Positions 1 through 29,242 of a stretch of 64,000 nucleotides of DNA are shown piece after piece (the first letter of the stretch is position 1; the number at the start of each line of letters is the position of its first letter). The translations under genes were made by a program, and so were the position numbers. The DNA is taken from NCBI GenBank assembly GCA_964402035.1, contig CAYOAM010000003.1:7921-71920 (forward strand), in the 5' to 3' direction. This stretch comes from an uncultured Candidatus Saccharibacteria bacterium. Lineage in GTDB: Bacteria > Patescibacteriota > Minisyncoccia > Phycocordibacterales > UBA918. The notes beneath the pieces are model-generated. The model was not told where the DNA came from. It made no database searches and was given only the letters and a program-made list of their open reading frames with translations.

Positions 1-21
1 TCGTGTATCAATAATTTCTCG

Positions 22-1791
22 TTGTGCTATCTACAGCACCGCATCGTCATGCCCTCCATGAAAAGAATAGACCGGCTATTTCATTTTGTTGAAACACGGC
101 CCGCAAGCGATCGAGCAATCTTGAAGTTCTTGCTCCTGTGTTCATTAGGAACATTACTTTTTGCGTTGATCAGTATGAGTACGCGCGCAACAATCGGTGT
201 ACCAGAACGTGGTGGCATATTGTCAGAAGGTATCGTGGGCACGCCACGCTTCATCAATCCACTCTTAGCTGCAACAAGCGCCGACCGTGATCTTAGCGCA
301 CTTATATACGCAGGACTTATGCGCCTCGGGAGCGACGGATCACTCCATCCCGATATGGCCGAGTCACTCACTGTTTCAGATGATGGCCTCACCTACAACA
401 TCGTGTTGCGCAGCAACAATACTTTTCATGATGACATACCAGTGACCGCAGACGATGTGATTTTTACTATATTGCGCGCGCAAGACCCCATGCTTAAAAG
501 TCCGCTGCGTGCCAACTGGGAAGGAGTGACTATAGAACGTATTGGTGAATATGAATTGAACCTCGTACTCAGTGAACCCTATGCACCGTTTATCGAAAAT
601 CTTACGATGGGTATTTTGCCACGTCATATTTGGGAGTTCGCAGAGATTGATCAAATACCATTTAGTCCGCACAATAGCGAACCTATAGGATCCGGTCCCT
701 ACATGATCAAAAACACCAAGAGGAACAGCTCTGGTATACCTGACGCATATATATTGAGTCCGTTTGATGACTATCATGGTGATATTCCCCGTATCGCAAC
801 ACTCAACGTACAGTTTTTCCAAAACGAAGAAGCGCTACTCGACGCGCTCATTGCAAAAAAAATAGATAGCGCCGCTAGTCTCTCACCACAGGCACTCGAC
901 ACCCTACTTGCAAATCCATCGACCAAAGATTCACACACCCTATACCGCACACCGCTTCCTCGCACATTTGCACTCTTCTTTAATCAAAATGAAGAACCGC
1001 TGTTCAGAGAACCTGCAGTACGTAAGGCGCTCAATACAGCCCTCGACCGCGATCGTATTGTGCAGGAAGTATTGGGTGGCTATGGGCAACCAATCGACGG
1101 TCCACTTCCCCCTGGTTTTACTACACTACCAACGTACAGTGCGACATCAACAACCCCTTCACAAAAAATAGATGCCGCTCGTGATATTCTTCGTGAAGGT
1201 GGTTTCAAAATCAACGAAACAACAGGACTGTGGGAGAAAAAAGTTGGTACCGAGGTGAAAGAATTGAAATTTAGTATTGAGACTGCAAATACCGACACAT
1301 TTGTCGCGACCGCAGAGATATTAAAAACAATCTGGGGAGAAGTTGGTATACCAGTTGATATTAAAAAATTTGAACAGTCGGACCTGACGCAGACGATCAT
1401 ACGTCCACGAAAATATAGCGCGCTACTGTTTGGGACTGCCGTTGGACGCGAACTCGATTTTTATTCATTCTGGCACTCATCCCAACGCAATGACCCTGGT
1501 CTCAATATAGCTCTCTACGCAAATATCACAACCGACGCAGTCCTGACCGAAGCACGCACAAAAACAAATAGGGACGACCGCGCGGAGGCGTACAAACGAT
1601 TTGCAGACGAAATGCGCACCGACCTCCCTGCACTGTTCCTCTTTGTTCCCGAATTTACCTACTTACTGCCAGACCGCATTCACGAGGTAACAGTAGCAGG
1701 ATTAGCAGGACCCAGTGAACGTTTCAGTAGTATCGGCGCTTGGTACACGAACACCGAATCGGTATGGCCATTTTTTAACAACACAAAATAA
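22..1791 (+). CDS. ABC transporter substrate-binding protein, family 5 (peptide/nickel, DppA/OppA-like)
   Basis: 589-aa ORF with an N-terminal signal/anchor. SBP_bac_5-like motifs are present (…IYAGLMRLGSDGSLHPDMAESLTVSDDGLTYNIVLR…). The true start may be the internal Met at ~49/58. Confidence 0.8.
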   Translation: MCYLQHRIVMPSMKRIDRLFHFVETRPASDRAILKFLLLCSLGTLLFALISMSTRATIGVPERGGILSEGIVGTPRFINPLLAATSADRDLSALIYAGLMRLGSDGSLHPDMAESLTVSDDGLTYNIVLRSNNTFHDDIPVTADDVIFTILRAQDPMLKSPLRANWEGVTIERIGEYELNLVLSEPYAPFIENLTMGILPRHIWEFAEIDQIPFSPHNSEPIGSGPYMIKNTKRNSSGIPDAYILSPFDDYHGDIPRIATLNVQFFQNEEALLDALIAKKIDSAASLSPQALDTLLANPSTKDSHTLYRTPLPRTFALFFNQNEEPLFREPAVRKALNTALDRDRIVQEVLGGYGQPIDGPLPPGFTTLPTYSATSTTPSQKIDAARDILREGGFKINETTGLWEKKVGTEVKELKFSIETANTDTFVATAEILKTIWGEVGIPVDIKKFEQSDLTQTIIRPRKYSALLFGTAVGRELDFYSFWHSSQRNDPGLNIALYANITTDAVLTEARTKTNRDDRAEAYKRFADEMRTDLPALFLFVPEFTYLLPDRIHEVTVAGLAGPSERFSSIGAWYTNTESVWPFFNNTK

Positions 1792-1814
1792 CACATCAGT
1801 ACTACTACACCATT

Positions 1815-3875
1815 ATGAACACAACAACACCATCGACCGGAGCAACTCCACAACCATACGGCAATCGTCGTCCGTTTTCTCATGCACGACGCCGCCCTAT
1901 GGGTGGAAGTGGTGGCGCCACTACACGTAGCGCCCATCGACCACTAGCACGTACCGGAACACCATCACACACGAGCGCACACGCACACCGACCACCCGCA
2001 ACGCACACGCGAGCTACACCTTCAGCATCGGGAGATCGTGCGCCCGTTCGCAGCGGCAGCGCTCCACGATCTCGCGACGGCGGAGCAAAGCGTCATGCAC
2101 GCTCTGGTCGCGACCGCGGTCCACGCAATACCGTAGGACAAATCAATCAGCGCATCACAATTGCAGATCCTGCGCGTCCTATTGTGCCGCCACTTACCGA
2201 TGAAGATTCAGTACGCATTATTCCTGTCGGTGGCGTTGAAGAAGTAGGAAAAAACATGATGATTGTGGAGACTAAAGATGACATCATCATTTTTGATGCT
2301 GGTTTCCAGTTTGTGTCAGACGAAAACGATGCGCCGGGTATCAACTATATTTTGCCTAACACGCAATACCTAGAGGACAACAAACACAAGATCCGCGCAC
2401 TCGTGATCACACACGGCCACCTCGACCATATTGGCGGTATTCCGTTTCTTATTGATCGTATTGGCAATCCACCAATCTACACGCGCTACCTCACATCCCT
2501 CATGATTTTGAAGCGGCAAGAAGAATTCCCCCATTTGCCAAAAGTGGTGATGCACGTCATCGAACCATGGCAGCGCATAAAACTCGGCAACACCTACATC
2601 AAGACGTTCCCCGTCACCCACTCAATCCCCGACTCAATGGGTATCTCTGTTGAAACCAAACACGGCAATGTCGTGATTTCTGGAGACCTTAAACTAGAAC
2701 ACGAAGACGGGATTGCATCTGATATCGAACAAGATACGTGGGGACGCATTGGAAAAGAAAAAAATATTCTGTTTATCGGCGACTCAACCAATGCTGAGAA
2801 AGACGGATTTTCAATCCCTGAGATTAAGGTGCACAACAATATTGAAGAGATCATTCGCACCGTAACTGGTCGCCTGATCATCGGTACGTTTGCATCACAG
2901 TTTGCTCGCATGACACATATCATCATGGCCTGTGAGCGTCTTGGAAAGAAAGTGGTAACCGAAGGTAGAAGTATCAAAAACAATATTGAGATTGCTCAAA
3001 AAGCAAACCTTCTCACCATTCAAAAAGGTACTATTATTCCCGTACAAGAGATCGATAGCTATCCTTCAGATCGCGTCGTCGTCATCTGCACCGGAGCGCA
3101 AGGTGAAGAATTTGCAGCACTCATGCGTATCGCAACCAAGAAACATAAGTTCGTAACTCTCGGCGAGCGCGATACGGTCATGCTCTCTTCGTCGGTTATT
3201 CCTGGCAATGAACTTTCGGTACAAAAACTGAAGGATAATATTTATCGCCGCGGCGCACACATCATCCACTACCGTGCTTCTGATGTGCACTCAACAGGAC
3301 ACGGAAATTCAGGAGAACTTGTATGGATTCGTGAGCAGGTAAACCCTACGTTCTTTATGCCTGCATATGGCTATCACTCAATGTTACGCTGCCATGCCTA
3401 CGCCAACATCGAAGCTGGTTTTCCAAAAGACAATGTCATCCTACCCGACAACGGCTCGGTCATTAATATTAAAAATGGCTCCGTGCTCACCGTCGACAAA
3501 CTCAAAATACCTTCTGAAAACATGATGGTAGACGGCTTCTCGGTTGGCACACGCCAAGAGGTCGTGATACGTGATAGACAATCACTGGCAAACGACGGAA
3601 TGTTTGTGGTTATTGCAACTATCAATCCAAAGACCGGCACACTAAGAAAGTCCCCCGACATTATTTCGCGTGGTTTTGTGTATCTTCGTGAATCGCAACA
3701 ATTGCTCCAAGAAGCACGCATTCTCATAAAGACGACCGTGGAGAAAGAAACCGAAAACATGAACCCGCTCAACCTTGACTATGTAAAGGAGGCACTTGCA
3801 GAAACACTGAGCGCATTCTTGCTCCAGAAAACGAATAAGACACCAATGGTTATACCTGTCCTTATCGGCTTGTAA
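1815..3875 (+). CDS. rnj: Ribonuclease J (metallo-beta-lactamase/beta-CASP RNase) with a ~120-aa Arg/Ser/Thr/His-rich N-terminal extension
   Basis: The core starts at VRIIPVGGVEEVGKNM and carries the HGHLDHIGG metallo-beta-lactamase motif and a beta-CASP region. A GC-rich basic low-complexity region lies upstream. No internal Met occurs between residue 29 and the core. Confidence 0.85.
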   Translation: MNTTTPSTGATPQPYGNRRPFSHARRRPMGGSGGATTRSAHRPLARTGTPSHTSAHAHRPPATHTRATPSASGDRAPVRSGSAPRSRDGGAKRHARSGRDRGPRNTVGQINQRITIADPARPIVPPLTDEDSVRIIPVGGVEEVGKNMMIVETKDDIIIFDAGFQFVSDENDAPGINYILPNTQYLEDNKHKIRALVITHGHLDHIGGIPFLIDRIGNPPIYTRYLTSLMILKRQEEFPHLPKVVMHVIEPWQRIKLGNTYIKTFPVTHSIPDSMGISVETKHGNVVISGDLKLEHEDGIASDIEQDTWGRIGKEKNILFIGDSTNAEKDGFSIPEIKVHNNIEEIIRTVTGRLIIGTFASQFARMTHIIMACERLGKKVVTEGRSIKNNIEIAQKANLLTIQKGTIIPVQEIDSYPSDRVVVICTGAQGEEFAALMRIATKKHKFVTLGERDTVMLSSSVIPGNELSVQKLKDNIYRRGAHIIHYRASDVHSTGHGNSGELVWIREQVNPTFFMPAYGYHSMLRCHAYANIEAGFPKDNVILPDNGSVINIKNGSVLTVDKLKIPSENMMVDGFSVGTRQEVVIRDRQSLANDGMFVVIATINPKTGTLRKSPDIISRGFVYLRESQQLLQEARILIKTTVEKETENMNPLNLDYVKEALAETLSAFLLQKTNKTPMVIPVLIGL

Positions 3876-3905
3876 AGAGTACGATTAAAAAAGCCAACCA
3901 ACTTT

Positions 3906-5105
3906 GTGATCAAACATCTAGCGGGAGAATCGAAACGACATCTGAAAGCAACGAAGTCGTTTGCGGTCGTATATCTTGCCATGCTGGTCCTTTCGCTCCA
4001 CTGGGCGACAGTGCTCTATGTCAATTCAACATTTCTCGAACAGTTTGTCAGTAGCGAGGCTGTCGGTACACTCTTTATAATTGGATCGGCGCTCACTATT
4101 TTTGCCTTCCTCTTTATATCGAGTGTATTGCGCATACTCGGCAATTACAAACTCACGCTCGTGCTGACGGCGATAGAATTCTGCGTACTTATTGGTCTTG
4201 CATTTGCTGAAAGTATGCGCGTTGCCGTACCACTCTTTATCATCCACCAAGCAGTCGTACCGCTCATCCTTTTTAACCTCGATGTCTTTGTCGAAAGTCT
4301 AACAAAAAACGAATCCGAAACGGGCGGAAAGCGTGGCATCATGCTCACGACCATGAGTTTTGCGAGCGCACTTGCACCATTGGGAACAGGCTTGCTTCTC
4401 GGATCCGATACACCACACTTCAGTATCGCGTATATGGTGAGCGCAGCGCTACTCATACCGTTTGTCTATATCGTATGGAAAAACTTTAAGACATTTTCTG
4501 ATTCTCCCTACCCACACATTGAGGTACTACAAAGCATCCGCTCATTTTGGATAGATCGCAATCTGCGGTATGTCTTTATGGCACACTTTCTCTTGCAGCT
4601 CTTCTTTGCGTGGATGGTGATTTATGTCCCACTCTATCTCGCAACCAAAATTGGTCTCCACTGGGATGCTATTGGCGTTATTTTGTTTGTTGGTCTGTTG
4701 GCCTATGTATTTTTGGAATACCCTATAGGAAGAGTCGCGGATCTCTACATCGGAGAAAAGGAAATGATGGCAACAGGATTTTTTATTCTTGCCATGGCAA
4801 CGTGCTGGATCTCTTTTATCACGACCCCCGTTATTATTCCGTGGATCGTGACAATGTTTCTAACGCGGGTCGGAGCAAGCCTCGTTGAGACCACCACGGA
4901 GACGTACTTTTTTAAACACACCAGCGGCAAAGATGCACATATCATTAGTTTTTTTCGCATCACCCGACCGCTCGGCATTGTTATAGGAGCGCTTTTGGGC
5001 AGTCTTGCGCTGCTCTATATGCCGTTTCAATTTATCTTTGTTGCACTTGGTGGCGTCATGCTCTTGGGTATCATCTGCAGTGTTCTACTGGTCGACACGC
5101 GCTAG
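3906..5105 (+). CDS. Multi-pass membrane transporter (MFS-like)
   Basis: 399 aa with about 10-12 predicted TM helices. No diagnostic motif was recognised with certainty. Confidence 0.5.
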   Translation: MIKHLAGESKRHLKATKSFAVVYLAMLVLSLHWATVLYVNSTFLEQFVSSEAVGTLFIIGSALTIFAFLFISSVLRILGNYKLTLVLTAIEFCVLIGLAFAESMRVAVPLFIIHQAVVPLILFNLDVFVESLTKNESETGGKRGIMLTTMSFASALAPLGTGLLLGSDTPHFSIAYMVSAALLIPFVYIVWKNFKTFSDSPYPHIEVLQSIRSFWIDRNLRYVFMAHFLLQLFFAWMVIYVPLYLATKIGLHWDAIGVILFVGLLAYVFLEYPIGRVADLYIGEKEMMATGFFILAMATCWISFITTPVIIPWIVTMFLTRVGASLVETTTETYFFKHTSGKDAHIISFFRITRPLGIVIGALLGSLALLYMPFQFIFVALGGVMLLGIICSVLLVDTR

Positions 5106-5106
5106 C

Positions 5107-5925
5107 CTACGGCAGTCTCCACTTCCCCACTCGATACACAACCAAGCCTTCTTTTGAGAGTGTGCTCGCGTATCGCACCAAGGACGGCTGTTTAAGACCT
5201 ACCTTCTTTGCAAGTTCAGCAGTCGTGTACGCAGTATCGCGGAGCGCACGCACTATTGACCCGCGTATTTGGCGCGATGATCCCTCAAATGTGCTCTGTC
5301 TCGTATAGCTTTTCGCACGTTTATTTTGATTGCCATGTGTACGTTTTATCCAGGACCCATAATCCATAAGTGCGGCATACCAGAGGCGCGGATTTTTACG
5401 ATCAAGTGTTTCGGTGATACGCGCCACTAGCTCCGTATCAGAAACATCGTTCTTCTTTGGAAAAAAATGGTACAAAAAAACAGTACGAATATTGGTTTCG
5501 ATTATTGGTACTGGCATGTTGTATGCAAAGGCAAGCACTGCTCCTGCAGTATAGGGACCGACACCGGGTAATGCTCGTAGCCCTTCAAAAGAATCTGGGA
5601 ACACGCCACTATGTTTCTTCATGATTTCTTTCGCGGCTTCATGGAGCATGCGAGCACGACGATTGTATCCAAGTCCACTCCACAGACGAAGCACGTCTCC
5701 CAACGTTGCCTGAGCAAGGATGGCACACGTTGGGAACGCAGTCATGAAGACTTGATACTTTGGCACCACACGATCTACTTGTGTCTGCTGCAGCATTATT
5801 TCAGACACAAGAATACTGTAAGGATCAGTGGTCTGCCGCCATGGAAATGATCGTCCGTCCTCTTTGTAATGTGTCCTGACGATTTTCTGAAATACGCGTA
5901 TGTCTTGTGCCGTGAGTCCGCGCAT
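5107..5925 (-). CDS. HhH-GPD superfamily DNA glycosylase (MutY/Nth-like) with a C-terminal winged-helix-like tail, lacking the 4Fe-4S Cys motif
   Basis: The HhH-GPD core is present (…LPGVGPYTAGAVLAFAYN…, ILVSEIMLQQTQV). No C-x6-C-x2-C-x5-C motif is present. The C-terminus resembles an HTH (…ELAKKVGLKQPSLVRYASTLSKEGLV). Confidence 0.7.
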   Translation of the reverse strand: MRGLTAQDIRVFQKIVRTHYKEDGRSFPWRQTTDPYSILVSEIMLQQTQVDRVVPKYQVFMTAFPTCAILAQATLGDVLRLWSGLGYNRRARMLHEAAKEIMKKHSGVFPDSFEGLRALPGVGPYTAGAVLAFAYNMPVPIIETNIRTVFLYHFFPKKNDVSDTELVARITETLDRKNPRLWYAALMDYGSWIKRTHGNQNKRAKSYTRQSTFEGSSRQIRGSIVRALRDTAYTTAELAKKVGLKQPSLVRYASTLSKEGLVVYRVGKWRLP

Positions 5926-5928
5926 AGT

Positions 5929-6795
5929 CTACGAAGTGAACTGAAGGAAGATAACGTGCTCGAGATCCCATTCTGCCTTGGTGAGAATACGTTCGTTATA
6001 CATACCTGCTTCTGGCCAGTTTGCTTCTGAGATGGATAGCGTGCCATCGGGAAATACCGCTTCAACATAGCCAAGATGCCCCATCTCTTCTGGCACATCA
6101 ACACGATCGGTAAACTCAATGACTGTTCCAACGGCAGGCGTCGCTATTTTTCGAACTGTTGGAACGGTAGCCAGAATGTCACTCCACATACCTGGTTTAC
6201 GCGGTCGTACCGGTGGCCACTTCACCGTTACACCACGACGGATTAAACGATAGAGCACGTATTCTTCGGACTGGAGCGGCATACCTGCTTCGCCTGCCCC
6301 AAATTCATCATTGATAATAGCGCGTACGCGTATCGTGGTCGGATCATCAGCATCATTTGGCGCTCCAATCACAAACGATGGATACACATGCGCTGCCCGG
6401 TCTTCCAAATCATCAACGTACACCCATCCACGATACGATCCACTCGCAACTTCTGCCCACAAATCTTGATCCTGCAGTACCATCACCATGGATCCATACG
6501 GCAGCACGGTGTACACAGTATCTCCATACGCACCGGCAGCACTACGCAACGGCGTTGCGATCGAAGATGTGTACATCACCGTATTTTTCTGTATCTTTTT
6601 TCGCTCTGACACCTCTTTATGTGTACGCAAGTCATCGTCATTGGTCGTCGAAAGCCCTGCAGTTATCTGTGTATATGTTTTTGGGGGCGGTAATGCAGAT
6701 ACGGTGGTGATTTTATTGGCAGGATGAAAAAAATGCTCGGTGAAATCAACAACGAAATCTACGAGGTCTTTGGCTACCGCAAAGATAAGCTGCAT
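5929..6795 (-). CDS. Hypothetical protein with a bacterial SH3-like domain
   Basis: SH3b-like segment (GSMVMVLQDQDLWAEVASGSYRGWVYVDDLE). The C-terminal domain is of unknown function, and the real start is possibly an internal Met. Confidence 0.45.
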   Translation of the reverse strand: MQLIFAVAKDLVDFVVDFTEHFFHPANKITTVSALPPPKTYTQITAGLSTTNDDDLRTHKEVSERKKIQKNTVMYTSSIATPLRSAAGAYGDTVYTVLPYGSMVMVLQDQDLWAEVASGSYRGWVYVDDLEDRAAHVYPSFVIGAPNDADDPTTIRVRAIINDEFGAGEAGMPLQSEEYVLYRLIRRGVTVKWPPVRPRKPGMWSDILATVPTVRKIATPAVGTVIEFTDRVDVPEEMGHLGYVEAVFPDGTLSISEANWPEAGMYNERILTKAEWDLEHVIFLQFTS

Positions 6796-6863
6796 ATCGA
6801 CGGCACTATAGCACTGTGGGGTTTTCTTGGAAAGCGGACATTTTTAAGCCTTTGGTAGAGCCG

Positions 6864-17589: not shown

Positions 17590-19125
17590 ATGGAAACACT
17601 TATGACCTGGTATCGCCGCTTGGAATCGTGGTACGGACGACGCGTCATCATAGGCGTTGTCTTGGCTACCCTACTGCTCGTAACTCTCGGCTTCTATCTT
17701 GGAACACGTGCAAGTGTCGCTGTAGATACACCGGAAACAAAAGCAAAGGAAGTTCGCGTTGCTAGGGCAGGATCGCTACTTAATAATGCGGCAGTCCTTC
17801 GTACTGTGGGAACCGTGCGCGCTGTTTCTGAAGCACGACTCGAAACTGAAAGTGCGGGTCGAGTGACTGCCGTAAACGTTAAAATTAACGATTTTGTACA
17901 GGCAGGTACTATCCTGGCGTCCATCGAAAACGCGAGCGAACGCGCCTCCCTGCTCCAAGCGCAAGGTGCCTATGAATCAATGCTTGCATCAAATGCGCAA
18001 TCAACAATCGGCCTTACTGAAGCAACGGCTGGAGCAGAGAACACTTACCGCACCGCATTTACGACCGCCGATGATGTCGTTCGCAATCTTACCGACGAAC
18101 TTTTTTCAAATGCAAACGAAAGTAATACTGGTCTTAAGATTGATGGCAACGGAGCCGCCCCCCGCCTCAATGCTGAGCGGGCTCTGATCGGGTCCATCCT
18201 ATCTGCGTGGAATACAAAGGTGCAAGACATCCATGCAAATGATCGCGCGGATCTCCTTTCAGAAGCAGGGCGTGATCTCACTCGCATCAGTACATTTGTC
18301 TCTGATCTTGCGTTCTTGGTCGCAGACGAAAAACCAAATGCCGCCTTTTCTGAAGACACACTCGCAAGCTACAAGGCACGACTGGGTGCCGCACGAACAC
18401 GACTCGACGGAACGCTTCAATCAATCACCAGCGCGCAGAACGCACTCAAGAGTGCTCGTCAGTCAGTTGAAGGAGGTGCTGTCGGTTCAGAATCAGAAGC
18501 CCGATTAAAGCAATCACTTGGTGCTCTTCGTGCCGCACAAGCATCATATGAAAAAACAATAGTACGTTCTCCTATCAGCGGAACCGTTAACGCGATCTAT
18601 CTCACTGCAAATACATTTGTGGGAAATGGTGCACCTGCCGCAGTTGTTGCGAACAATAATGCACTTGAAATCACCACCTCAGTTGGTGAAAATGAGCGAG
18701 CGTTTGTTGCTATCGGAAGTACGGTCCGTATCAACGACACATGGGATGGTACGATCACCCGGATTGCACCCGCTATCGATCCACAAACTGGCAAAATTGA
18801 AATAAAGGTTAGTGTAAACGCAAAAAGTGACGAGGCAAAACTTGCAAATGGCACCACGGTATCACTTGCCCTTGCAGCCGAGAGCAGTGCAGACACTGCA
18901 AACGACCTTCGTATTCCGATCAAAGCTTTGAAAATAACACCGCAAGGCACGGTGGTGTTTAGCGTGTCCGACACACAAACACTTATAGCAATACCCATAC
19001 TCATCGACACCATCATTGGCGACAGTGTGCGTATCAAAAGTGGTATCACGAGCGAATCAGTTATCGTCGATGATGCCCGTGGACTCAAAGAGAACGACAC
19101 GGTTACGATCGTTACTGGATCATAA
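17590..19125 (+). CDS. Efflux RND transporter periplasmic adaptor (membrane fusion protein, HlyD family)
   Basis: N-terminal TM. Biotin-lipoyl-like region (VKINDFVQAGTILASIEN), a long coiled coil and C-terminal beta-barrel domains. Confidence 0.8.
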   Translation: METLMTWYRRLESWYGRRVIIGVVLATLLLVTLGFYLGTRASVAVDTPETKAKEVRVARAGSLLNNAAVLRTVGTVRAVSEARLETESAGRVTAVNVKINDFVQAGTILASIENASERASLLQAQGAYESMLASNAQSTIGLTEATAGAENTYRTAFTTADDVVRNLTDELFSNANESNTGLKIDGNGAAPRLNAERALIGSILSAWNTKVQDIHANDRADLLSEAGRDLTRISTFVSDLAFLVADEKPNAAFSEDTLASYKARLGAARTRLDGTLQSITSAQNALKSARQSVEGGAVGSESEARLKQSLGALRAAQASYEKTIVRSPISGTVNAIYLTANTFVGNGAPAAVVANNNALEITTSVGENERAFVAIGSTVRINDTWDGTITRIAPAIDPQTGKIEIKVSVNAKSDEAKLANGTTVSLALAAESSADTANDLRIPIKALKITPQGTVVFSVSDTQTLIAIPILIDTIIGDSVRIKSGITSESVIVDDARGLKENDTVTIVTGS

Positions 19126-19131
19126 ATATCT

Positions 19132-22100
19132 ATGCACTGGCTCTGGAATTTCTTTCTTGATAAGCGTCAATTTAGTGTGCTCTTTATCGTAGCGCTTATT
19201 GCTATCGGTACCTACGCTGCATTTGTGATTCCAAAAGAATCTGCACCAGAAGTCATTGTACCAATCGGCATTGTTGCAACGGTATTTCCCGGTACGTCTG
19301 CATCTGATATTGAGCAACTGATCACCAATAAACTGGAAAAAAAGATTGGCGACGTTGATAACATCGACACGCTTACGTCAGTATCGCGTGATGGTGTTTC
19401 TATTATAACCGCTGAGTTCGATGCTTCTGCAGATATTAATATTTCAATTCAGGAACTCAAAGACGCCGTTGACGCAGGAAAAGGCGAGCTACCACAAGAT
19501 GCGCAAGATCCTGTCGTCACAAAAGTAAATTTTTCAAATGACCCTATTTTAATCGTCGCCGTGTCTGCTGATCTTGCTCCAACTGAATTTACGCGTCTTG
19601 GTGAACAAGTTGCGACCGAACTTGAAGCTGTTGCCGGTGTCTCCCAAGTAACAATCTCGGGTACACAAAAAAGAGAAGTACAGATCGTGGTACGTCCCGA
19701 TGCACTTCGTGCATACAACCTCACCCTGGGTGATATTTCACAAGCCTTGCGCGGAGCGAACATTGAAGTTCCGGTCGGTATAGTAAAGAACGACGGTATT
19801 GAATATGCCATCCGTTTTGAAGGTAGTATTGAAAACCCAACAGCGATTGGTGATATTCCACTTGCAAGTAAGGGAGGTCAATCTATATTCATGCGCGATG
19901 TGGCCCTCGTCATAAATGGTGTCGAGCAAGCAACGACTCTTTCACGCGTTTCAGTAGACGGAGCACCTGCAGAAAATGCGATGACGCTTTCAATATTCAA
20001 AAGTGCCGGCAGTGACGTCACCGCCATGGCACCGGCTGTACGAGCCAAGATTGATGCACTGACGCAGCCCGATGCACTACTTGCAGATTCACAAGTACTT
20101 ATCGTCTTCGATCAGGGGGCAAACGTAAAGAAAGATCTTACGGACCTCACTACTACCGGTTTTGAAACGGTACTTCTGGTTGTTGCTTGCCTCCTACTCA
20201 CGATTGGCTGGCGTGAATCTTTGGTTGCAGCACTTTCAATCCCCCTTTCTTTTGTGATCGCATTCATTGGTCTCTACGCATCAGGGAACACGATCAATTT
20301 CGTCTCGCTTTTTGCGCTCATCCTTGCGATTGGAATTCTCGTTGACTCCGGTATTGTGGTCACCGAAGCGATTCATACACGCATGCGGACGTTGGGAGAT
20401 GCCGACAAAGCAGCACGTGAAGCAATCCGCGAATACGCATGGCCACTTATTGGCGGCACCATGACGACCGTTGCAGTATTTGCACCACTCTTTTTCTTGT
20501 CAGGTATTACGGGAGAATTTATCGCATCTATACCCTACACGATTATTTTTGTTCTCGTTGCATCCATTCTGGTTGCGCTCGGTATGGTGCCATTGATCGC
20601 GATTTACCTCACGAAGCACGGGCAATCAAATCGCTTGGAGGAGATGCAGGAAGTCTATACGCACAAAGCACAAGCGTGGTACCGAGAAAAGCTCATTGCA
20701 TTCCTACAGAATATTCGTGCGCAGCGCATCTTCTTATGGACACTTGCTCTTGCATTTTTTATGACGCTTACACTTCCGGTGCTTGGACTTGTTAATGTTG
20801 TTTTCTTCCCACCTGAAAACGTCGACAATGTGTATATCGAGGTAGAAACAAAACAAGGAACAACACTTGCTGAGACGGATCTATCGCTCCGTGCCGCAGA
20901 AGAAATCCTCTATGAGCTGCCATATGTTGAATCGTTTACATCGACAGCGGGTGCAGGTTCAGTCTTTACCCAGAGCGGAAATGCTGGCGGCAAGTTTGGA
21001 AACATCAGCGTCACACTCTCAGAGACGAGAGAACTTCGAAGTCAAGAAGTAGCAATACTACTTCGTGAAGAGCTGCGCAAGATAACGACCGCTGACTTTA
21101 AAATAACCGAGCAGTCCAATGGTCCTCCGAGTGGAGCGCCGATTGTACTCAAGTTTATTGGTGGCAATCTTGAAGACCTTGCACTCGCGGCAGACAATGC
21201 CGAGAGACTACTCGCTTCGATTCCTGGTACGCGCGATATTGAGGCAAGCACCAAAAATAGCGCAACCGAAATTGTGCTCTCGATCGATCATGCAAAAGCA
21301 AATGCGGCTGGTGTCTCACCCTTTGCTGTTGGCGAAACATTGCGTTCAGCGGTATTTGGTATCACCGCAACCACAATCACTGAGAATGGTGACGATGTTG
21401 ATATTGTCGTAAAGCTCGATGTTGGGCCAAAAACGGTGGATGCGGGAGCAAATCCTGAAATCACCCTTACGGATCTCAAAAATGTTTCTATAAACACAGG
21501 AAATGGCTCTGTTCTTGTTGGCTCAATCATCAATGAAGATCTAGCTTCAGCACGAGCAGCCATTGTTCACGAAGACGAAGAACGGCTGGAAACTGTGTCC
21601 GCGTTTACCACACCAGAGGTTACCACGCTTGAAGTAACGAATGCCTTTAAGGCACGCGAATCGGAACTTAAACTTCCCGCAAACGTGCGTATTTCATATG
21701 GCGGAGAAACTGAGGACATAAACCGATCGTTTACAGAAATGTTCGTCGCTTTGATTGCAGGACTCGTGCTCATGTTGACCATCCTCGTGCTCTCATTCAA
21801 CTCAATCCGTTATTCCTTGTACTTACTCTTGGCCGTACCCTACTCACTCATTGGCGTCTTTATTGGACTTGCGATTACGCGCCAACCACTTTCGTTTACT
21901 TCGCTTCTTGGTGTTATTGCACTTGCCGGCGTCATTATCAACCACGCCATCATTCTGATGGATTCGCTCATTGTGCGTCGCGACATGCGTGCGGATGACG
22001 ACCTTATGCTAATAGTAGCGGATGGTTCCGTCTCTCGTCTGCGACCAATCTTCCTTACGACCATCACCACAATCGTTGGTATGGTACCACTCTCTACCAT

Positions 22101-22257
22101 TTCAGATTTCTGGAGCCCGCTTGCCTACACCATCATGTTCGGACTGGCCTTTGCGATGATTCTCACCTTGCTCCTTGTACCTACACTCTTCTATAGACAT
22201 GAGAAAAAAGTTCGCCAGAAAGCAACAAAAGCGATAACAGCATCGGGCAAGGCTTAA
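19132..22257 (+). CDS. RND efflux pump permease (AcrB/AcrD/AcrF family)
   Basis: 1041 aa with 12-TM topology and two large periplasmic loops. It lies 6 nt after the MFP gene. Confidence 0.9.
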   Translation: MHWLWNFFLDKRQFSVLFIVALIAIGTYAAFVIPKESAPEVIVPIGIVATVFPGTSASDIEQLITNKLEKKIGDVDNIDTLTSVSRDGVSIITAEFDASADINISIQELKDAVDAGKGELPQDAQDPVVTKVNFSNDPILIVAVSADLAPTEFTRLGEQVATELEAVAGVSQVTISGTQKREVQIVVRPDALRAYNLTLGDISQALRGANIEVPVGIVKNDGIEYAIRFEGSIENPTAIGDIPLASKGGQSIFMRDVALVINGVEQATTLSRVSVDGAPAENAMTLSIFKSAGSDVTAMAPAVRAKIDALTQPDALLADSQVLIVFDQGANVKKDLTDLTTTGFETVLLVVACLLLTIGWRESLVAALSIPLSFVIAFIGLYASGNTINFVSLFALILAIGILVDSGIVVTEAIHTRMRTLGDADKAAREAIREYAWPLIGGTMTTVAVFAPLFFLSGITGEFIASIPYTIIFVLVASILVALGMVPLIAIYLTKHGQSNRLEEMQEVYTHKAQAWYREKLIAFLQNIRAQRIFLWTLALAFFMTLTLPVLGLVNVVFFPPENVDNVYIEVETKQGTTLAETDLSLRAAEEILYELPYVESFTSTAGAGSVFTQSGNAGGKFGNISVTLSETRELRSQEVAILLREELRKITTADFKITEQSNGPPSGAPIVLKFIGGNLEDLALAADNAERLLASIPGTRDIEASTKNSATEIVLSIDHAKANAAGVSPFAVGETLRSAVFGITATTITENGDDVDIVVKLDVGPKTVDAGANPEITLTDLKNVSINTGNGSVLVGSIINEDLASARAAIVHEDEERLETVSAFTTPEVTTLEVTNAFKARESELKLPANVRISYGGETEDINRSFTEMFVALIAGLVLMLTILVLSFNSIRYSLYLLLAVPYSLIGVFIGLAITRQPLSFTSLLGVIALAGVIINHAIILMDSLIVRRDMRADDDLMLIVADGSVSRLRPIFLTTITTIVGMVPLSTISDFWSPLAYTIMFGLAFAMILTLLLVPTLFYRHEKKVRQKATKAITASGKA

Positions 22258-26060: not shown

Positions 26061-27092
26061 CTATCCAGTCCAATAAAAGGCCATGATACTAAAGTCGATA
26101 ATATTTATGACACCATCACCATTGAGTTGTGCAGCCTCTCGAACGGAAAACGACTCACTAAGAGTACGCCGATACCAAAATGCAGCAATTGAAAAGTCGA
26201 TCAAGTTTACCGTGCAATCACCGTTTAGGTCTGCTTTCTTGACGCAGGCATTTGTGCCCACAGTCGCAACATTTTTAGACCCAACCTTAAAGGGTACCTC
26301 AATACTAAACGGGCTTATCTCACTACTGGTCGCCGAACGTGATTTTGTATGGTGATCCCCGAGCACCAACACTGCAGTATCAAAATTGTGCAGATAGGTA
26401 CCACGTACATCTGCAGGAGTCTGCACAAAAAACTGTTGCGGAGATTGTACTTCGAGTGTCACGGTCGAAGCTGGTACACTTTGTCCAAAAAAAGTGATGG
26501 GGTCACCACGACGCACTTCGCTTTTATCAGCGGAAAGTGTCGGCGCTATAAAAACTCCATCGATTTTTGTGAGTACATTGCGCGTGAGTGTAACATCATA
26601 CGGTAACGTTGCCGATCGTTGGTGATGTATGTCTTCGCTAAATAGTACAAAATGGTAACTACCTGACGAAAGTCCACTGATGGTTACCTGAAAATTTGCG
26701 AGTGAACTCGCCACGGTTTTTGCTACCCGTTGTCCATCTTTGAGGATCGTAATCGTGCTACCGGGGTAGGCTCTTCCTTCAAACACTATCGTGGCATTTC
26801 CATTTCCCCCGCTCGACCCGCCGCCACCTCCTCCACCGCCACCTCCTCCTGCTACGCAACTACTGGTATCAAGTTCGCACGCAGCTGTACAAGATAGCGA
26901 CCCCGAAGAAAATCCTTGAGATACACACGTCTTGCCGTCAAAATCCGAACCATCGCATGCTTCACCGACCTCAGCTATTCCATCACCACATCCTGGAACA
27001 ATAGCGACTATATCTACATCTTCCCCGTGGAGGGATATGGGTGCAATTAAGAAACATACTACAGAGAAACTGAGTAGAAAAAGATGACGCAT
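26061..27092 (-). CDS. Secreted dockerin-containing protein with a Myxococcus-type Cys-rich repeat and a poly-Gly linker
   Basis: Cys-rich repeat CGDGIAEVGEACDGSDFDGKTCVSQ…C. Linker of G11-SSGGNG. Two dockerin Ca-binding repeats at the C-terminus (DLNGDCTVNLIDFSIAAF… and LNGDGVINIIDFSIMAF). The start was taken at the internal Met that gives a signal peptide. Confidence 0.6.
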   Translation of the reverse strand: MRHLFLLSFSVVCFLIAPISLHGEDVDIVAIVPGCGDGIAEVGEACDGSDFDGKTCVSQGFSSGSLSCTAACELDTSSCVAGGGGGGGGGGGSSGGNGNATIVFEGRAYPGSTITILKDGQRVAKTVASSLANFQVTISGLSSGSYHFVLFSEDIHHQRSATLPYDVTLTRNVLTKIDGVFIAPTLSADKSEVRRGDPITFFGQSVPASTVTLEVQSPQQFFVQTPADVRGTYLHNFDTAVLVLGDHHTKSRSATSSEISPFSIEVPFKVGSKNVATVGTNACVKKADLNGDCTVNLIDFSIAAFWYRRTLSESFSVREAAQLNGDGVINIIDFSIMAFYWTG

Positions 27093-27102
27093 GAATACAA
27101 CG

Positions 27103-28053
27103 CTAGCGCGAAGCAACACTTCGCGCAATAATCCATTGATTATACTTACGAAGACTGAACCGACCTGCACCCAGCAACAAGATCACAATACTGAGTAATT
27201 GCCAAGGAATGATAAAGAAATGATAGCTATTTTGATTTTTGGTATCAGTAGTCCCCCACGACAAATCAAGCACGGCCGTGTACCAACCAAAATGAAAATC
27301 ACTCAATTGTCGCTTGGCTATAGCAAAAAAACCTTCAGCTTTTGGTTCCAATATTTTCCACGTTGATTCAAAGCGTCGAGCACTATTGGGCAAAACACTC
27401 CCTTCGCTCTCATTTGCTGAAAATGTAGTAACGGTACTTCTAAAACTATTTTTTACACCCACTGTTCCTCGCGGCACAATACGATCACCACCGGTGTTGT
27501 TTATGCGATACGAAAATGCAATAGGTAGCTGAGAAAAAAACCTGCCTCCCGGAGCATTAAACTCAAGAACACCACCCCCTTCTTCGATGTCTCCCGCAAC
27601 GCGCAAAAAGACCAAGACGCCAAGCCTTCCACCAATAGAAACTTCACCACCCTCTTGCGTTTTTGGATCTTGTCCACCAAAAAATACAGCAGCAAAATAA
27701 CCGCCCGGTTCAGTTTCTTTTGGTATCGTTATCGAAAGAGGAATCTTAATGCGCTCAAGTGGAGCAAGCGAGACACGACCTCCTGCTTGCATCCAGGTTG
27801 CGAGGCCGTCCTTCGCTCCGACAAAATACGGAGATCCAGTATCGCCGCTCGGTTCAAAATTTTCGTACGAGGGGTAAAATTCTTTTGGCTCGTTTTGTTC
27901 ATTGAGGAGTTCAATGTCAGTGTAGAGTGTCTGTCCTGGGTTCCCAGTTATTTCGATCTTTACGGGAGACAGTGTAAGCGCCTCGACGTGTGGCGCGTGT
28001 AAAATCACCGCACACACCACAAGACCAAAAAATATTCTAAAATTGTATTTCAT
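27103..28053 (-). CDS. Secreted beta-rich protein with a C-terminal TM anchor (accessory protein of the surface locus)
   Basis: Signal peptide, Gly-rich beta-strand pattern, C-terminal TM (HFFIIPWQLLSIVILLLGAG) and a basic tail. Confidence 0.45.
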   Translation of the reverse strand: MKYNFRIFFGLVVCAVILHAPHVEALTLSPVKIEITGNPGQTLYTDIELLNEQNEPKEFYPSYENFEPSGDTGSPYFVGAKDGLATWMQAGGRVSLAPLERIKIPLSITIPKETEPGGYFAAVFFGGQDPKTQEGGEVSIGGRLGVLVFLRVAGDIEEGGGVLEFNAPGGRFFSQLPIAFSYRINNTGGDRIVPRGTVGVKNSFRSTVTTFSANESEGSVLPNSARRFESTWKILEPKAEGFFAIAKRQLSDFHFGWYTAVLDLSWGTTDTKNQNSYHFFIIPWQLLSIVILLLGAGRFSLRKYNQWIIARSVASR

Positions 28054-28098
28054 GGAGTTTTCTCCATACTATAAGTATCGAGCAGAGAATGCAACCGA

Positions 28099-29172
28099 CT
28101 AATAATTGGCCGTTGCCGTGTATGTGAGGGTCGCGCTATAACTTCCTGCCTCTGTGTTTGAGCCAATGTTCGCAAGGTAGCGAGCTGAATAGGTAGTATT
28201 TGCGGTCGCTACCGTTGATGTAGCTACCGTATCAGGAAAAGCGCCAGAATCAAATGCAAAGCCCGAGGCCGCATACGGCGCATTGACCGCACCATTACCA
28301 CCTGCCGCTGTCAAACGCAGTCCGAACTGCTCAGTACCAACAGATGAGGCTGAGTTTGAGGCGCCAATTGCAGTAATCGTGTTCCCACCAGAGGTTAGGG
28401 TATTTCCGTTCAACGTGAGCGAATATCCATTACTTGCATTTGTGCCAACAATCAAATTGTGTGCCTCGACTTCTGATGTGTCACCCGACGCCGTACCCGA
28501 TGCGTATCGTGCAGCGCCAGAGGTCAATGTACCAAAACTGATGCTATTGTCTGAAATACTGAAGGTAATGGACTGAGCGACGGTAGCCGAAATAGCCACC
28601 TGGTCATCGTTCACAATACTGACGGTGATATCTCCAGAGTCAAAACCGTTACCACTTATGGCGATTCCGTATGACGTTGCCACGCTTGGATTGGTCGAAC
28701 TGGCGGCAGTAAAAGAGAAGATCAGTACATCATTGGGGTCGACAGCAGCTGCACCAATTCCATCGGTAGGTGCTGTGAAAGTCCACACACGGCCCTGTGT
28801 TCCTGTTGTAGCTACAGCCCAGCGTGATCCATCAGCAACACCATGCAACGTTTCTGTCGTCTCAAGACCAGTGGAAGGGCCATGGGTAAATGTCACCGAT
28901 GTAGTCGCCTTTCCCGTAAAGTTAAAATCCGATGGGAACGTAATAACAATGGTGTCGGTATTGTCGCTCGCACCTGTTGGGCTCGTGAATTTGATCGAGT
29001 GAGTCGATGTTGCAGGGCTAATCTTGGACGAGGACATTGTATCCGATGCGCTCGTTATTGATGCGGCATGAACGGTGACTCGTGGAAATACCCACGCTAC
29101 GAGCATAGCAATCACCAAGAGAGCACTCAAAGCAGCCCGACGAGAAAAAATATGGGTTACATTCATATGCAT
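28099..29172 (-). CDS. Secreted two-domain protein with a C-terminal TasA/camelysin-like domain (putative fibre/pilin-like subunit)
   Basis: The C-terminal 170 aa are homologous to the C-terminus of the giant protein. The motif ITFSISDNSISFGTL resembles the FFSDKEVSNNTFAAGTLDL motif of TasA/CalY. Confidence 0.5.
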   Translation of the reverse strand: MHMNVTHIFSRRAALSALLVIAMLVAWVFPRVTVHAASITSASDTMSSSKISPATSTHSIKFTSPTGASDNTDTIVITFPSDFNFTGKATTSVTFTHGPSTGLETTETLHGVADGSRWAVATTGTQGRVWTFTAPTDGIGAAAVDPNDVLIFSFTAASSTNPSVATSYGIAISGNGFDSGDITVSIVNDDQVAISATVAQSITFSISDNSISFGTLTSGAARYASGTASGDTSEVEAHNLIVGTNASNGYSLTLNGNTLTSGGNTITAIGASNSASSVGTEQFGLRLTAAGGNGAVNAPYAASGFAFDSGAFPDTVATSTVATANTTYSARYLANIGSNTEAGSYSATLTYTATANY

Positions 29173-29242
29173 AATATTATACGTATGATTATATGCTACT
29201 TACGCGATAAATTATGACAGCACGTTGGGATAACTGTTAATA

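What the first reader, a model, noticed from the sequence alone, without database searches (positions are those of the whole stretch)
1815..2190. RNase J carries a ~120-aa arginine-rich, low-complexity N-terminal extension
The canonical RNase J core begins at VRIIPVGG. The core is preceded in-frame by a GC-rich segment encoding a highly basic Arg/Ser/Thr/His/Pro-rich tail (pI well above 11). No Met occurs between residue 29 and the core, so the extension must be translated. Such disordered basic tails are typical of RNA or ribosome tethering modules (compare the RNase E C-terminal region, which RNase J-only organisms lack). It might nucleate a degradosome-like assembly.
Basis: seen in the sequence. 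Interest (0 to 1): 0.55.

Follow-up and report, generated by a model that had tools for sequence, protein, structure and literature searches.

The report
Arginine-rich disordered tail on RNase J
The main RNA-degrading enzyme (RNase J) of this ultra-small "CPR" bacterium really does carry a 132-residue, strongly positive, floppy N-terminal tail; the tail recurs across that whole bacterial group, most likely helps the enzyme grab RNA or partners, and resembles a tail so far described only for Helicobacter RNase J.

Summary
ORF 1815-3875 (+) encodes a 686-aa RNase J. Its catalytic core starts at VRIIPVGG (aa 133, nt 2211). The 132 preceding residues have 16% Arg, 10% hydrophobic residues, pI 12 and net charge +15.

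Better evidence shows the tail is translated:
- The frame is open in every related locus examined.
- The excess GC sits in codon positions 1 and 2.
- Motifs are conserved upstream of the GTG.
- The apparently short homologues are start-calling artefacts.

The tail has four parts: a polar cap, a semi-conserved motif (GNRRPFSHARRRP), about 70 fast-evolving residues predicted disordered, and a conserved segment before the core (R113 invariant) that AlphaFold2 models with moderate to high confidence.

Basic N-terminal tails of 43-200 aa occur on RNase J across Patescibacteria. They are Arg-rich in GC-richer genomes and Lys-rich in AT-rich ones. They occur on half of the nearest RNase J cluster representatives.

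The closest described case is the 132-aa disordered N-terminus of Helicobacter pylori RNase J, which shows no detectable sequence similarity.

The function is inferred, not shown: electrostatic RNA capture, possibly with partner docking. I rate it a new variant of a known kind, of moderate interest.

The parts
1815..3875 (+). rnj gene: 686-aa RNase J including the N-terminal extension (the stop codon is included)
   Evidence: ORF list. Pfam Lactamase_B, RNase_J_b_CASP and RNase_J_C. B. subtilis RNase J1 3zq4 aligns at E 1e-121 over aa 130-684. The 120 listed homologues at 69-86% identity include some named Kaiserbacteria or Paceibacteria.
1815..1859 (+). Start codon and uncharged polar cap (MNTTTPSTGATPQPY, aa 1-15)
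   Evidence: ATG 1815 is the first start codon after the in-frame stop at 1776-1778 and lies 23 nt after the stop of the upstream SBP gene. Homologues begin similarly, with M-[N/E/D]-polar residues.
1860..1898 (+). Semi-conserved short linear motif GNRRPFSHARRRP (aa 16-28): Arg clusters around a single aromatic residue
   Evidence: A basic-aromatic-basic motif occurs in the first 50 aa of 50 of 90 homologues, against 14.7 expected from composition-preserving shuffles. The consensus is roughly RRxxxFS[R/H]xRRRP(EIRVSR). A variant, RRSAPFHADS, occurs in distant Patescibacteria. The motif lies upstream of Met29, which supports the start at 1815.
1899..2114 (+). Variable Arg/Ser/Thr/Pro/Gly/Ala/His-rich disordered region (aa 29-100)
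   Evidence: AlphaFold2 pLDDT is about 30-34 with no secondary structure. Mean pairwise identity is 25% over aa 1-107, against 84% in the core; net charge per residue is 0.20 +/- 0.04 across 90 homologues. There are no tandem repeats, no Pfam family and no PDB hit.
2115..2210 (+). Conserved segment before the core (aa 101-132: RGPRNTVGQINQRITIADPARPIVPPLTDEDS)
   Evidence: R113 is invariant. R104, L/I110, H/Q112, D118, P126, D129 and D131 are kept in 72-90 of 90 sequences. Mean pairwise identity over aa 108-132 is 49%. pLDDT is 44 for aa 101-110, 68 for 111-120 and 91 for 121-130. PDB RNase J alignments begin only at aa 125-131.
2184..2186 (+). In-frame GTG (Val124), the only alternative start candidate near the core
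   Evidence: Found, with no SD-like sequence upstream. It encodes a conserved Val/Ile column (45 V, 42 I of 90) and would cut the conserved segment before the core.
2211..3872 (+). Canonical RNase J core (metallo-beta-lactamase, beta-CASP and C-terminal domains), aa 133-686
   Evidence: Pfam domains. The HxHxDH motif H200-G-H202-L-D204-H205 is invariant. The AlphaFold2 model is confident over most of the core. PDB homologues align across it.
22..1791 (+). Upstream gene for a family-5 solute-binding protein, ending 23 nt before the rnj ATG (syntenic neighbour, not part of the feature)
   Evidence: Pfam SBP_bac_5, E 3e-66. The order SecG, SBP_bac_5, rnj, MFS_1 recurs in relatives. The small gap leaves no room for a long untranslated leader of its own.

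Best explanation
Shown. The rnj gene of this Patescibacteria (CPR; Kaiserbacteria/Paceibacteria-like) genome is translated from ATG 1815. It yields RNase J with a lineage-typical N-terminal appendage. About 100 residues are intrinsically disordered, Arg-rich (net charge about +17) and almost free of hydrophobic residues. This region contains one semi-conserved Arg/aromatic short motif near its N-terminus. A conserved segment of about 30 residues joins it to the catalytic core; only the last ~20 of these (aa 111-132) are modelled with pLDDT of 68 or more. Evolution keeps the presence, length range and positive charge of the tail but not its sequence. Whether Arg or Lys supplies the charge follows genomic GC.

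Inferred. The tail acts as a non-specific electrostatic RNA-capture arm. RNase J forms dimers and tetramers, so each oligomer would carry two to four arms. The arms would raise the local RNA concentration at the enzyme and its affinity for RNA. In a reduced genome where RNase J is one of the few retained RNases, this would support 5'-3' exonucleolytic and endonucleolytic decay and rRNA maturation. This parallels the Arg-rich RNA-binding segments of the RNase E C-terminal region and the H. pylori RNase J N-terminus, whose deletion strongly lowers activity in vitro. The conserved motif may also dock a partner or a specific RNA. Multivalency could allow clustering or condensates.
For: Translation of the tail:
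- Frame 0 is open from an ATG 0-75 nt after the in-frame stop in the 27 related loci plus the window where the core was found, while the other five frames carry stops in most. The chance of an open frame per locus is 0.001-0.4 by shuffling, and 0.025 for the window.
- GC1/GC2/GC3 is 0.68/0.73/0.37 in the tail against 0.53/0.35/0.49 in the core, and the pattern is the same in relatives.
- The N-terminal motif and R113 are conserved upstream of any internal start.
- Two clusters of 'short' homologues were checked and have open, Arg/Gly-rich upstream frames with an ATG.

Disorder: pLDDT is about 32 over aa 1-107.

Conserved bulk properties:
- About 100 of 119 close homologues, as called, carry 62-141-aa tails with pI about 12 and charge +6 to +25.
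- Net charge per residue is 0.20 +/- 0.04 despite 25% identity.

Breadth:
- Of 23 loci scored, 22 carry a tail of at least 40 aa and 20 have net charge of at least +5. They are labelled Kaiserbacteria, Paceibacteria, Parcubacteria, Peregrinibacteria, Peribacteria, Gracilibacteria and Saccharibacteria.
- R/(R+K) correlates with GC, rho 0.74.
- Of 139 nearest 50%-identity cluster representatives, 71 have tails of at least 40 aa, and 63 of these have pI of at least 10.

Literature:
- CPR genomes retain rnj, rnc and pnp in at least 90% of genomes (PMC12641178).
- Deleting the 132-aa N-terminus of H. pylori RNase J strongly lowers activity in vitro (PMC3592473), and the region is predicted disordered (PMC10700544; PMC7492731).
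Against: - No experiment or direct computation here shows RNA binding. The mechanism rests on composition and analogy.
- The positive charge density is moderate: the best 40-aa window has net +9, and other window proteins reach +9 to +10 locally.
- The tail has no detectable similarity to the H. pylori tail, so the analogy is functional only.
- No helicase, PNPase or enolase gene was found among the 23 window ORFs scanned.
- Of 90 homologues, 62 have an internal Met just before the core. Tail-less isoforms might therefore exist in relatives, which would imply the tail is not needed for every function.
- Basic disordered tails can also bind membranes, DNA or polyphosphate.
Confidence: 0.6

Rival explanations
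1. The extension is not translated. The real start is the GTG at 2184 (or similar), and nt 1792-2183 are a GC-rich 5' leader or regulatory RNA of rnj.
For: - GTG 2184 lies 9 codons before the core and would give a canonical 563-aa RNase J.
- No SD-like sequence precedes ATG 1815.
- The RNA 1792-2210 folds somewhat better than shuffles, z = -2.77.
- Gene callers chose internal starts in about 20 of 120 homologues.
Against: - SD-like motifs are rare throughout this genome region (6 of 62 ORFs) and are also absent before GTG 2184.
- Frame 0 is open in all related loci examined, and the other frames are not.
- The codon-position GC pattern is that of coding sequence.
- Peptide motifs are conserved upstream, including invariant R113 and the N-terminal motif.
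- GTG 2184 is a conserved Val/Ile codon position.
- Only 23 nt separate the upstream gene's stop from ATG 1815.
Confidence: 0.04
2. The tail is chiefly a protein-protein scaffold. The conserved Arg/aromatic motif (aa 16-28), and perhaps the segment before the core, dock PNPase, a DEAD-box helicase or the ribosome, forming an RNase J-based degradosome. RNA binding is secondary.
For: - A short conserved motif sits within an otherwise unconstrained disordered region: 50 of 90 homologues against 14.7 expected.
- Arg-rich motifs at the RNase E and RNase J C-termini in cyanobacteria are reported or proposed to bind PNPase (PMC12464536).
- CPR genomes keep both rnj and pnp (PMC12641178).
- H. pylori RNase J forms a degradosome with RhpA on ribosomes (PMC3592473).
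Against: - In H. pylori the N-terminal extension is dispensable for RhpA binding.
- No partner gene is linked to rnj here or in the syntenic relatives.
- The motif is missing or degenerate in about 40% of close homologues.
- No interaction was modelled.
Confidence: 0.2
3. The tail is a localisation device. It would bind the membrane (anionic lipids), the nucleoid or polyphosphate electrostatically, placing RNase J in foci, as with the membrane-associated foci of H. pylori RNase J.
For: - The composition is basic and disordered.
- H. pylori RNase J forms peripheral foci, and its disordered region was proposed to contribute (PMC7492731; PMC10700544).
- Gracilibacteria and Peregrinibacteria homologues carry an amphipathic-looking LxxWLxK motif at the N-terminus.
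Against: - The window protein has no amphipathic or hydrophobic segment in the tail (9.8% hydrophobic residues, no W, one F, one Y).
- There is no localisation data.
Confidence: 0.1
4. The tail is a tolerated, largely neutral low-complexity expansion with no specific function.
For: - Sequence turnover is very fast (25% identity) and length is variable at 62-141 aa.
- The choice of Arg or Lys simply tracks GC.
Against: - The tail persists in nearly all sampled Patescibacteria despite streamlined genomes.
- The net positive charge is narrowly conserved and acidic and hydrophobic residues are depleted.
- Conserved motifs are embedded in it.
- There are no tandem repeats or slippage signature.
Confidence: 0.06

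Closest known systems
Helicobacter pylori RNase J with its 132-aa N-terminal extension (PMC3592473; PMC7492731; PMC10700544; PDB 8CGL and 7PCR)
   Same: - The architecture is the same: an extension of about 130 aa directly in front of the metallo-beta-lactamase domain of RNase J.
- The H. pylori extension is predicted disordered, is not resolved in cryo-EM, and has limited sequence conservation within its own lineage.
- In both lineages RNase J is prominent: it is the major, essential RNase in H. pylori, and rnj is one of three ribonuclease genes kept in at least 90% of CPR genomes.
   Different: - There is no detectable sequence similarity. The phmmer alignment to full-length 8CGL covers only aa 127-643, and the tail alone hits nothing in the PDB at E up to 10.
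- The tail here is Arg/Pro/Thr/Ser/His-rich.
- It contains a conserved N-terminal motif and a conserved segment before the core that are specific to the Patescibacteria clade.
- The literature calls the extension Helicobacter-specific, whereas here it spans a whole superphylum.
- No functional data exist for the CPR version.
C-terminal non-catalytic region of RNase E (degradosome scaffold with Arg-rich RNA-binding segments; BR-body-forming disordered region)
   Same: A basic, disordered appendage on the main decay RNase. It contains short conserved microdomains within fast-evolving sequence. It is proposed to bind RNA and organise decay.
   Different: - It is a different enzyme family (beta-CASP metallo-beta-lactamase, not the RNase E/G fold).
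- The appendage is N-terminal rather than C-terminal and much shorter (about 130 aa against several hundred).
- No amphipathic membrane-targeting helix was found.
- No partner-binding sites have been demonstrated.
Arg-rich C-terminal motif of cyanobacterial RNase E and RNase J that binds, or is proposed to bind, PNPase (PMC12464536)
   Same: A short Arg cluster on an RNase outside the catalytic core; a candidate docking motif for PNPase, which CPR genomes also retain.
   Different: It sits at the C-terminus and has a different sequence (RRRRRRSSA, RRSRKRS). The motif here is N-terminal, includes a conserved aromatic residue, and has no interaction evidence.
Canonical RNase J1/J (B. subtilis 3ZQ4, T. 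thermophilus 3BK1, S. coelicolor 5A0T, M. tuberculosis 7WNT)
   Same: The core at aa 133-686 aligns end to end (E 1e-82 to 1e-121), with all three domains and the HxHxDH motif.
   Different: In those chains the alignment starts at residue 6-25, so at most about 5-24 residues precede the aligned core. None has the 132-aa tail or the conserved segment before the core.

Membership tests
RNase J (beta-CASP metallo-beta-lactamase ribonuclease) | Metallo-beta-lactamase domain with the HxHxDH zinc motif | tested here: met
   Pfam Lactamase_B at aa 145-303, E 1.8e-13. H200-G-H202-L-D204-H205 is invariant in 90 homologues.
RNase J (beta-CASP metallo-beta-lactamase ribonuclease) | RNase J-type beta-CASP domain inserted in the MBL domain | tested here: met
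   PF22505 RNase_J_b_CASP at aa 352-475, E 1.5e-39, 135 bits against a cut-off of 27.
RNase J (beta-CASP metallo-beta-lactamase ribonuclease) | RNase J C-terminal (dimerisation) domain and end-to-end similarity to solved RNase J structures | tested here: met
   PF17770 at aa 584-684, E 7e-24. 3zq4 (RNase J1) aligns at E 1.1e-121 over aa 130-684.
RNase J (beta-CASP metallo-beta-lactamase ribonuclease) | 5'-3' exo- and endoribonuclease activity | not testable with these tools
   Needs an enzyme assay.
Helicobacter-type RNase J N-terminal extension | Extension of about 130 aa immediately N-terminal of the MBL domain | tested here: met
   132 aa lie before VRIIPVGG. The H. pylori extension is 132 aa (PMC3592473).
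Helicobacter-type RNase J N-terminal extension | Predicted intrinsic disorder | tested here: met
   AlphaFold2 pLDDT is below 50 for aa 1-107 with no secondary structure.
Helicobacter-type RNase J N-terminal extension | Sequence homology to the Helicobacter extension (common origin) | tested here: not met
   phmmer aligns full-length H. pylori 8CGL only over query aa 127-643, chain residues 139-651 (the identity of 8CGL comes from PMC10700544). The tail alone finds no PDB sequence at E up to 10. It is therefore an analogue, not a member.
Helicobacter-type RNase J N-terminal extension | Required for full ribonuclease activity in vitro | not testable with these tools
   Shown only for H. pylori.
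RNase E-type degradosome scaffold region | Disordered region with Arg-rich RNA-binding segments | tested here: inconclusive
   Composition and disorder fit. RNA binding was not tested.
RNase E-type degradosome scaffold region | Amphipathic membrane-targeting helix | tested here: not met
   The tail has 9.8% hydrophobic residues, no predicted helix and no W.
RNase E-type degradosome scaffold region | Conserved microdomains that bind helicase, enolase or PNPase | tested here: inconclusive
   One conserved motif (aa 16-28) was found, in 50 of 90 homologues against 14.7 expected. The partner is unknown, and no partner gene was found among the 23 window ORFs scanned.

The most novel reading that the evidence does not exclude
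Across Patescibacteria/CPR, RNase J has taken over the scaffold role that the RNase E C-terminal region plays in Proteobacteria. Its N-terminal basic disordered region binds RNA. Through the conserved RRxxxFS[R/H]xRRRP motif it recruits PNPase, another partner or the ribosome. This would build a minimal RNase J-based degradosome or condensate that organises RNA decay in ultra-small cells. On this reading, N-terminal basic tails are a general and overlooked solution in RNase J-dependent bacteria, not a Helicobacter peculiarity.
Probability: 0.2. Interest if true: 0.65.

Novelty: new variant of a known kind. Interest (0 to 1): 0.42.

Why it matters
RNase J is one of only three ribonuclease genes (rnj, rnc, pnp) retained in at least 90% of CPR genomes (PMC12641178). 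How these minimal, mostly uncultured cells organise RNA decay is unknown.

The literature treats a disordered N-terminal extension on RNase J as a Helicobacter-specific oddity of unclear function. This analysis shows that a non-homologous but architecturally equivalent basic tail is near-universal in Patescibacteria and common among the nearest RNase J clusters. That turns it into a recurrent design principle.

It also gives concrete handles for biochemistry: the conserved N-terminal motif, invariant R113 and the segment before the core.

There is a practical point too. About one in six database homologues are mis-annotated as tail-less, because gene callers start them at an internal Met.

Tried and rejected
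- Alternative start at GTG 2184 or ATG 1899: rejected on frame conservation, the codon-position GC pattern and motifs conserved upstream.
- SD-based start discrimination: uninformative, since only 6 of 62 window ORFs have an SD-like motif.
- Tandem-repeat or slippage origin: no tandem repeats, only short chance-level direct repeats.
- Promoter or terminator between the SBP gene and rnj: nothing above the shuffle expectation.
- Known domain in the tail: Pfam gives only a noise hit (FoP_duplication, E 7.4), and the PDB gives none.
- Genome-wide habit of Arg-rich tails: no other window ORF has one.
- Degradosome partners next to rnj: none among the 23 window ORFs scanned. Neighbours are an SBP, an MFS transporter, an HhH-GPD glycosylase, glycosidases, an RND pump and others.
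- 'Short' homologues as evidence of absence: rejected after reading their DNA.
- dN/dS on the tail: not attempted. The nearest relative is only about 80% identical in the core and under 40% in the tail, so alignment and saturation would make it meaningless.
- Taxon names for distant tailed RNase J clusters: mostly unavailable. Only a Clostridia MAG, Dojkabacteria and 'bacterium' were named.
- Literature search for RNase J together with Patescibacteria: one paper, which is silent on the extension.
Full report
**1. Observation**

The + strand carries an ORF at 1815-3875 encoding 686 aa. ATG 1815 is the first possible start after the in-frame TAA at 1776-1778. It lies 23 nt after the stop of the upstream SBP_bac_5 gene.

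Pfam places Lactamase_B at aa 145-303, the RNase J beta-CASP domain at 352-475 (E 1.5e-39) and the RNase J C-terminal domain at 584-684. Solved RNase J structures align from aa 125-131 to the end; B. subtilis J1 3zq4 gives E 1e-121. The first core strand, VRIIPVGG, starts at aa 133 (nt 2211).

The 132 residues before it are R21 P17 T16 A16 G14 S13 H7, with a single Lys and seven acidic residues. Their pI is 12.0 and their charge +15, against pI 6.7 for the core.

Against 11,148 residues of other proteins encoded in the window:
- Arg is 15.9% against 4.4%, and no other 132-aa window exceeds 10.6%.
- The hydrophobic fraction is 9.8%, below the minimum of 21.2% in 2,204 windows.

GC is 0.60 in the extension against 0.47 for the first 6 kb of the window. 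The true boundary is 2210 rather than 2190.

**2. Is the extension translated?**

That argument is incomplete. An in-frame GTG at 2184 (aa 124) lies 9 codons before the core and would give a canonical-length enzyme. Shine-Dalgarno evidence cannot decide, because only 6 of 62 long ORFs in the window have any SD-like motif upstream.

Four other lines of evidence settle it.
- **Open frame.** In the 27 related loci where the core could be located, plus the window, the frame of the core stays open back to an ATG 0-75 nt after the in-frame stop. The other five frames carry stops in most loci. The chance of such an open frame per locus is 0.001-0.4 by shuffling, and 0.025 for the window.
- **Codon-position GC.** The excess GC sits in codon positions 1 and 2 (0.68 and 0.73), not in position 3 (0.37). 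In relatives, position 3 stays below positions 1 and 2 and rises with genome GC, though it is usually somewhat lower than in the core. This is what selection for Arg, Pro, Ala, Gly and Thr codons predicts.
- **Conserved peptide features upstream of GTG 2184.** R113 is invariant in 90 sequences, and a block runs R104..L/I110-x-H/Q112-R113..D118-P119..P126-L-T-D129-x-D131. A motif is also conserved at aa 16-28, upstream of Met29. GTG 2184 itself encodes a conserved Val/Ile column.
- **No tail-less relatives found.** About 20 of the 120 best homologues are annotated as 573-590 aa. I read the DNA of two such clusters (P0028 at L026, P0010 at L029). Both have an open upstream frame with an ATG and an Arg/Gly-rich translation, so the gene caller had simply picked an internal Met.

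**3. Anatomy**

The extension has four parts.
- **aa 1-15:** an uncharged polar cap (MNTTTPSTGATPQPY), similar at the N-termini of homologues.
- **aa 16-28:** GNRRPFSHARRRP, Arg clusters around the tail's only Phe. A basic-aromatic-basic motif is present in the first 50 residues of 50 of 90 homologues, against 14.7 expected from composition-preserving shuffles. The consensus is roughly RRxxxFS[R/H]xRRRP(EIRVSR). A variant, RRSAPFHADS, recurs in distant Patescibacteria.
- **aa 29-100:** a variable Arg/Ser/Thr/Pro/Gly/Ala/His region.
- **aa 101-132:** a conserved segment before the core.

Over aa 1-107, mean pairwise identity is 25%, against 49% for aa 108-132 and 84% for the core. Net charge per residue stays at 0.20 +/- 0.04.

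AlphaFold2, run with a 90-sequence alignment, gives the following:
- pLDDT of about 32 and no secondary structure for aa 1-107;
- pLDDT of 68 for aa 111-120;
- pLDDT of 91 for aa 121-130.

The last roughly 20 residues are therefore predicted to be ordered and are probably packed against the core. I could not inspect the coordinates, so the packing is an inference.

The tail has no tandem repeats, no Pfam family and no PDB similarity.

**4. Distribution**

The 120 best homologues are 69-86% identical. The few that carry a name are Candidatus Kaiserbacteria, Paceibacteria or Pacebacteria. About 100 of 119, as called, carry tails of 62-141 aa with pI about 12 and charge +6 to +25.

A scan of one genome per GTDB species returned 25 loci, labelled Kaiserbacteria, Paceibacterota, Parcubacteria, Patescibacteria, Saccharibacteria, Peregrinibacteria, Peribacteria and Gracilibacteria. 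Nearly all have a basic tail of 43-128 aa. The single clear exception has 18 aa and comes from a 65% GC genome labelled only 'uncultured bacterium'. In the scored set of 23 (16 of these loci, six loci fetched through homologues and the window itself), 22 have a tail of at least 40 aa and 20 have net charge of at least +5.

Whether the charge is supplied by Arg or Lys follows genomic GC (Spearman 0.74, p 6e-5).

In an exhaustive HMMER search of 1.84 billion cluster representatives, I could locate the core start in 139 of the 150 best RNase J hits. Of these, 71 have an N-terminal extension of at least 40 aa (40 of them at least 100 aa), 63 of the 71 have pI of at least 10, and 41 are canonical with fewer than 15 aa. 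The few with names include a Dojkabacteria MAG (203 aa) and a Clostridia MAG (214 aa).

The feature is therefore a recurrent one, not a peculiarity of this genome.

**5. Context**

The gene order SecG, SBP_bac_5, rnj, MFS_1 (then HhH-GPD) is conserved in relatives. Of the window's roughly 62 long ORFs, 23 (including rnj and its two neighbours) were scanned against Pfam. No helicase, PNPase or enolase turned up. No other window protein has a comparable tail. Genomic context therefore gives no clue to a partner.

**6. Mechanism**

What is shown: a translated, conserved, basic disordered appendage with two conserved elements.

What is inferred: it works as an electrostatic RNA-capture arm. RNase J forms dimers and tetramers in characterised species, so each oligomer would carry several arms. 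These would raise affinity for RNA substrates. The conserved motif possibly docks a partner or a specific RNA.

Support is by analogy:
- Deleting the 132-aa N-terminus of H. pylori RNase J strongly lowers activity in vitro, yet the N-terminus is dispensable for binding the RhpA helicase (PMC3592473).
- That region is predicted disordered, is unresolved in cryo-EM, and has been proposed to contribute to foci (PMC10700544 and PMC7492731).
- Arg-rich motifs on cyanobacterial RNase E and RNase J are linked to PNPase binding (PMC12464536).
- CPR genomes retain rnj, rnc and pnp in at least 90% of genomes (PMC12641178).

Nothing here measures RNA binding. Membrane, nucleoid or ribosome tethering, and pure protein scaffolding, all remain open.

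Of 90 homologues, 62 have a Met within about 38 residues of the core, though the window protein does not. Tail-less isoforms made by internal initiation therefore cannot be excluded in relatives.

**7. Comparison with what is known**

The protein is a bona fide RNase J; all sequence-level defining features were met.

The tail is architecturally the same as the Helicobacter extension and coincidentally the same length. It is not homologous to it. phmmer aligns full-length H. pylori 8CGL only from aa 127 onward, and the tail alone finds nothing in the PDB at E up to 10. It resembles the RNase E C-terminal scaffold in kind: a basic disordered region containing conserved microdomains. It is N-terminal, much shorter, sits on a different fold and lacks an amphipathic membrane helix.

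In the searchable literature the N-terminal extension is described as specific to Helicobacter. The only paper mentioning both RNase J and Patescibacteria does not discuss it.

**8. Verdict**

The feature is real and ordinary in the sense that it is a disordered tail on a known enzyme. It is conserved across a superphylum, is apparently undescribed there, and carries defined conserved elements. I class it as a new variant of a known kind, of moderate interest (0.42). The most novel reading still allowed is a CPR-wide RNase J-based degradosome or condensate scaffold. I give that about 20% probability.

Noticed in passing
window, upstream regions of 62 ORFs of at least 120 aa: Only 6 of 62 ORFs have an SD-like motif within 20 nt of the ATG. 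A TAN[AT][AT]T (-10-like) box starts 9-20 nt before the ATG in 16 of 62, against 9 of 62 in a control window. This is a weak hint of non-SD, possibly partly leaderless, initiation in this genome.
   Followed up: partly
homologues P0010, P0015, P0028, P0035, P0078-P0082 and others; loci L026 and L029: About one in six database homologues (573-590 aa) are annotated without the tail, because gene callers started at an internal Met in the conserved segment before the core. In the two cases read, the upstream frame is open, Arg/Gly-rich and has an ATG. Of 90 homologues, 62 have such a Met and the window protein has none. Internal initiation giving a short isoform is not excluded.
   Followed up: partly
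L018, L019, L023, L024, L025 (first ~25 codons of rnj); also P0151, P0153, P0177, P0230: RNase J tails in loci labelled Gracilibacteria, Peregrinibacteria and Peribacteria are Lys-rich. They begin with a conserved LxxWLxK-like, possibly amphipathic, motif that the window protein lacks. It might be a membrane- or partner-binding helix.
   Followed up: no
P0169 cluster (870-914 aa, 16 members), P0198 (874 aa), P0227 (773 aa, Clostridia MAG): Some RNase J clusters carry much longer N-terminal extensions (214-362 aa), including at least one outside the CPR. Their taxonomy and nature were not resolved.
   Followed up: partly
window 1-6800 and loci L026, L029, L030, L031: The gene order SecG, SBP_bac_5, rnj, MFS_1, HhH-GPD glycosylase is conserved among relatives. 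rnj follows the SBP gene by only 23 nt, which suggests co-transcription.
   Followed up: no
window 1792-2210 (+): The RNA covering the tail-coding region folds somewhat better than dinucleotide shuffles (MFE -134 kcal/mol, z = -2.77, 0 of 100 shuffles as good). This could merely reflect GC-rich coding sequence. No covariation test was done.
   Followed up: no
window 26061-34280 (-): A run of large ORFs has no Pfam hit at E up to 1e-5: 343, 316, 357, 1311 and 366 aa. It is an uncharacterised block, typical of CPR genomes but unexplored here.
   Followed up: no
window 17590-22257 (+): A HlyD-family membrane-fusion protein is followed by a full-length AcrB/RND transporter (E 5e-166). This is an RND efflux pair in a Patescibacteria-like genome.
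   Followed up: no
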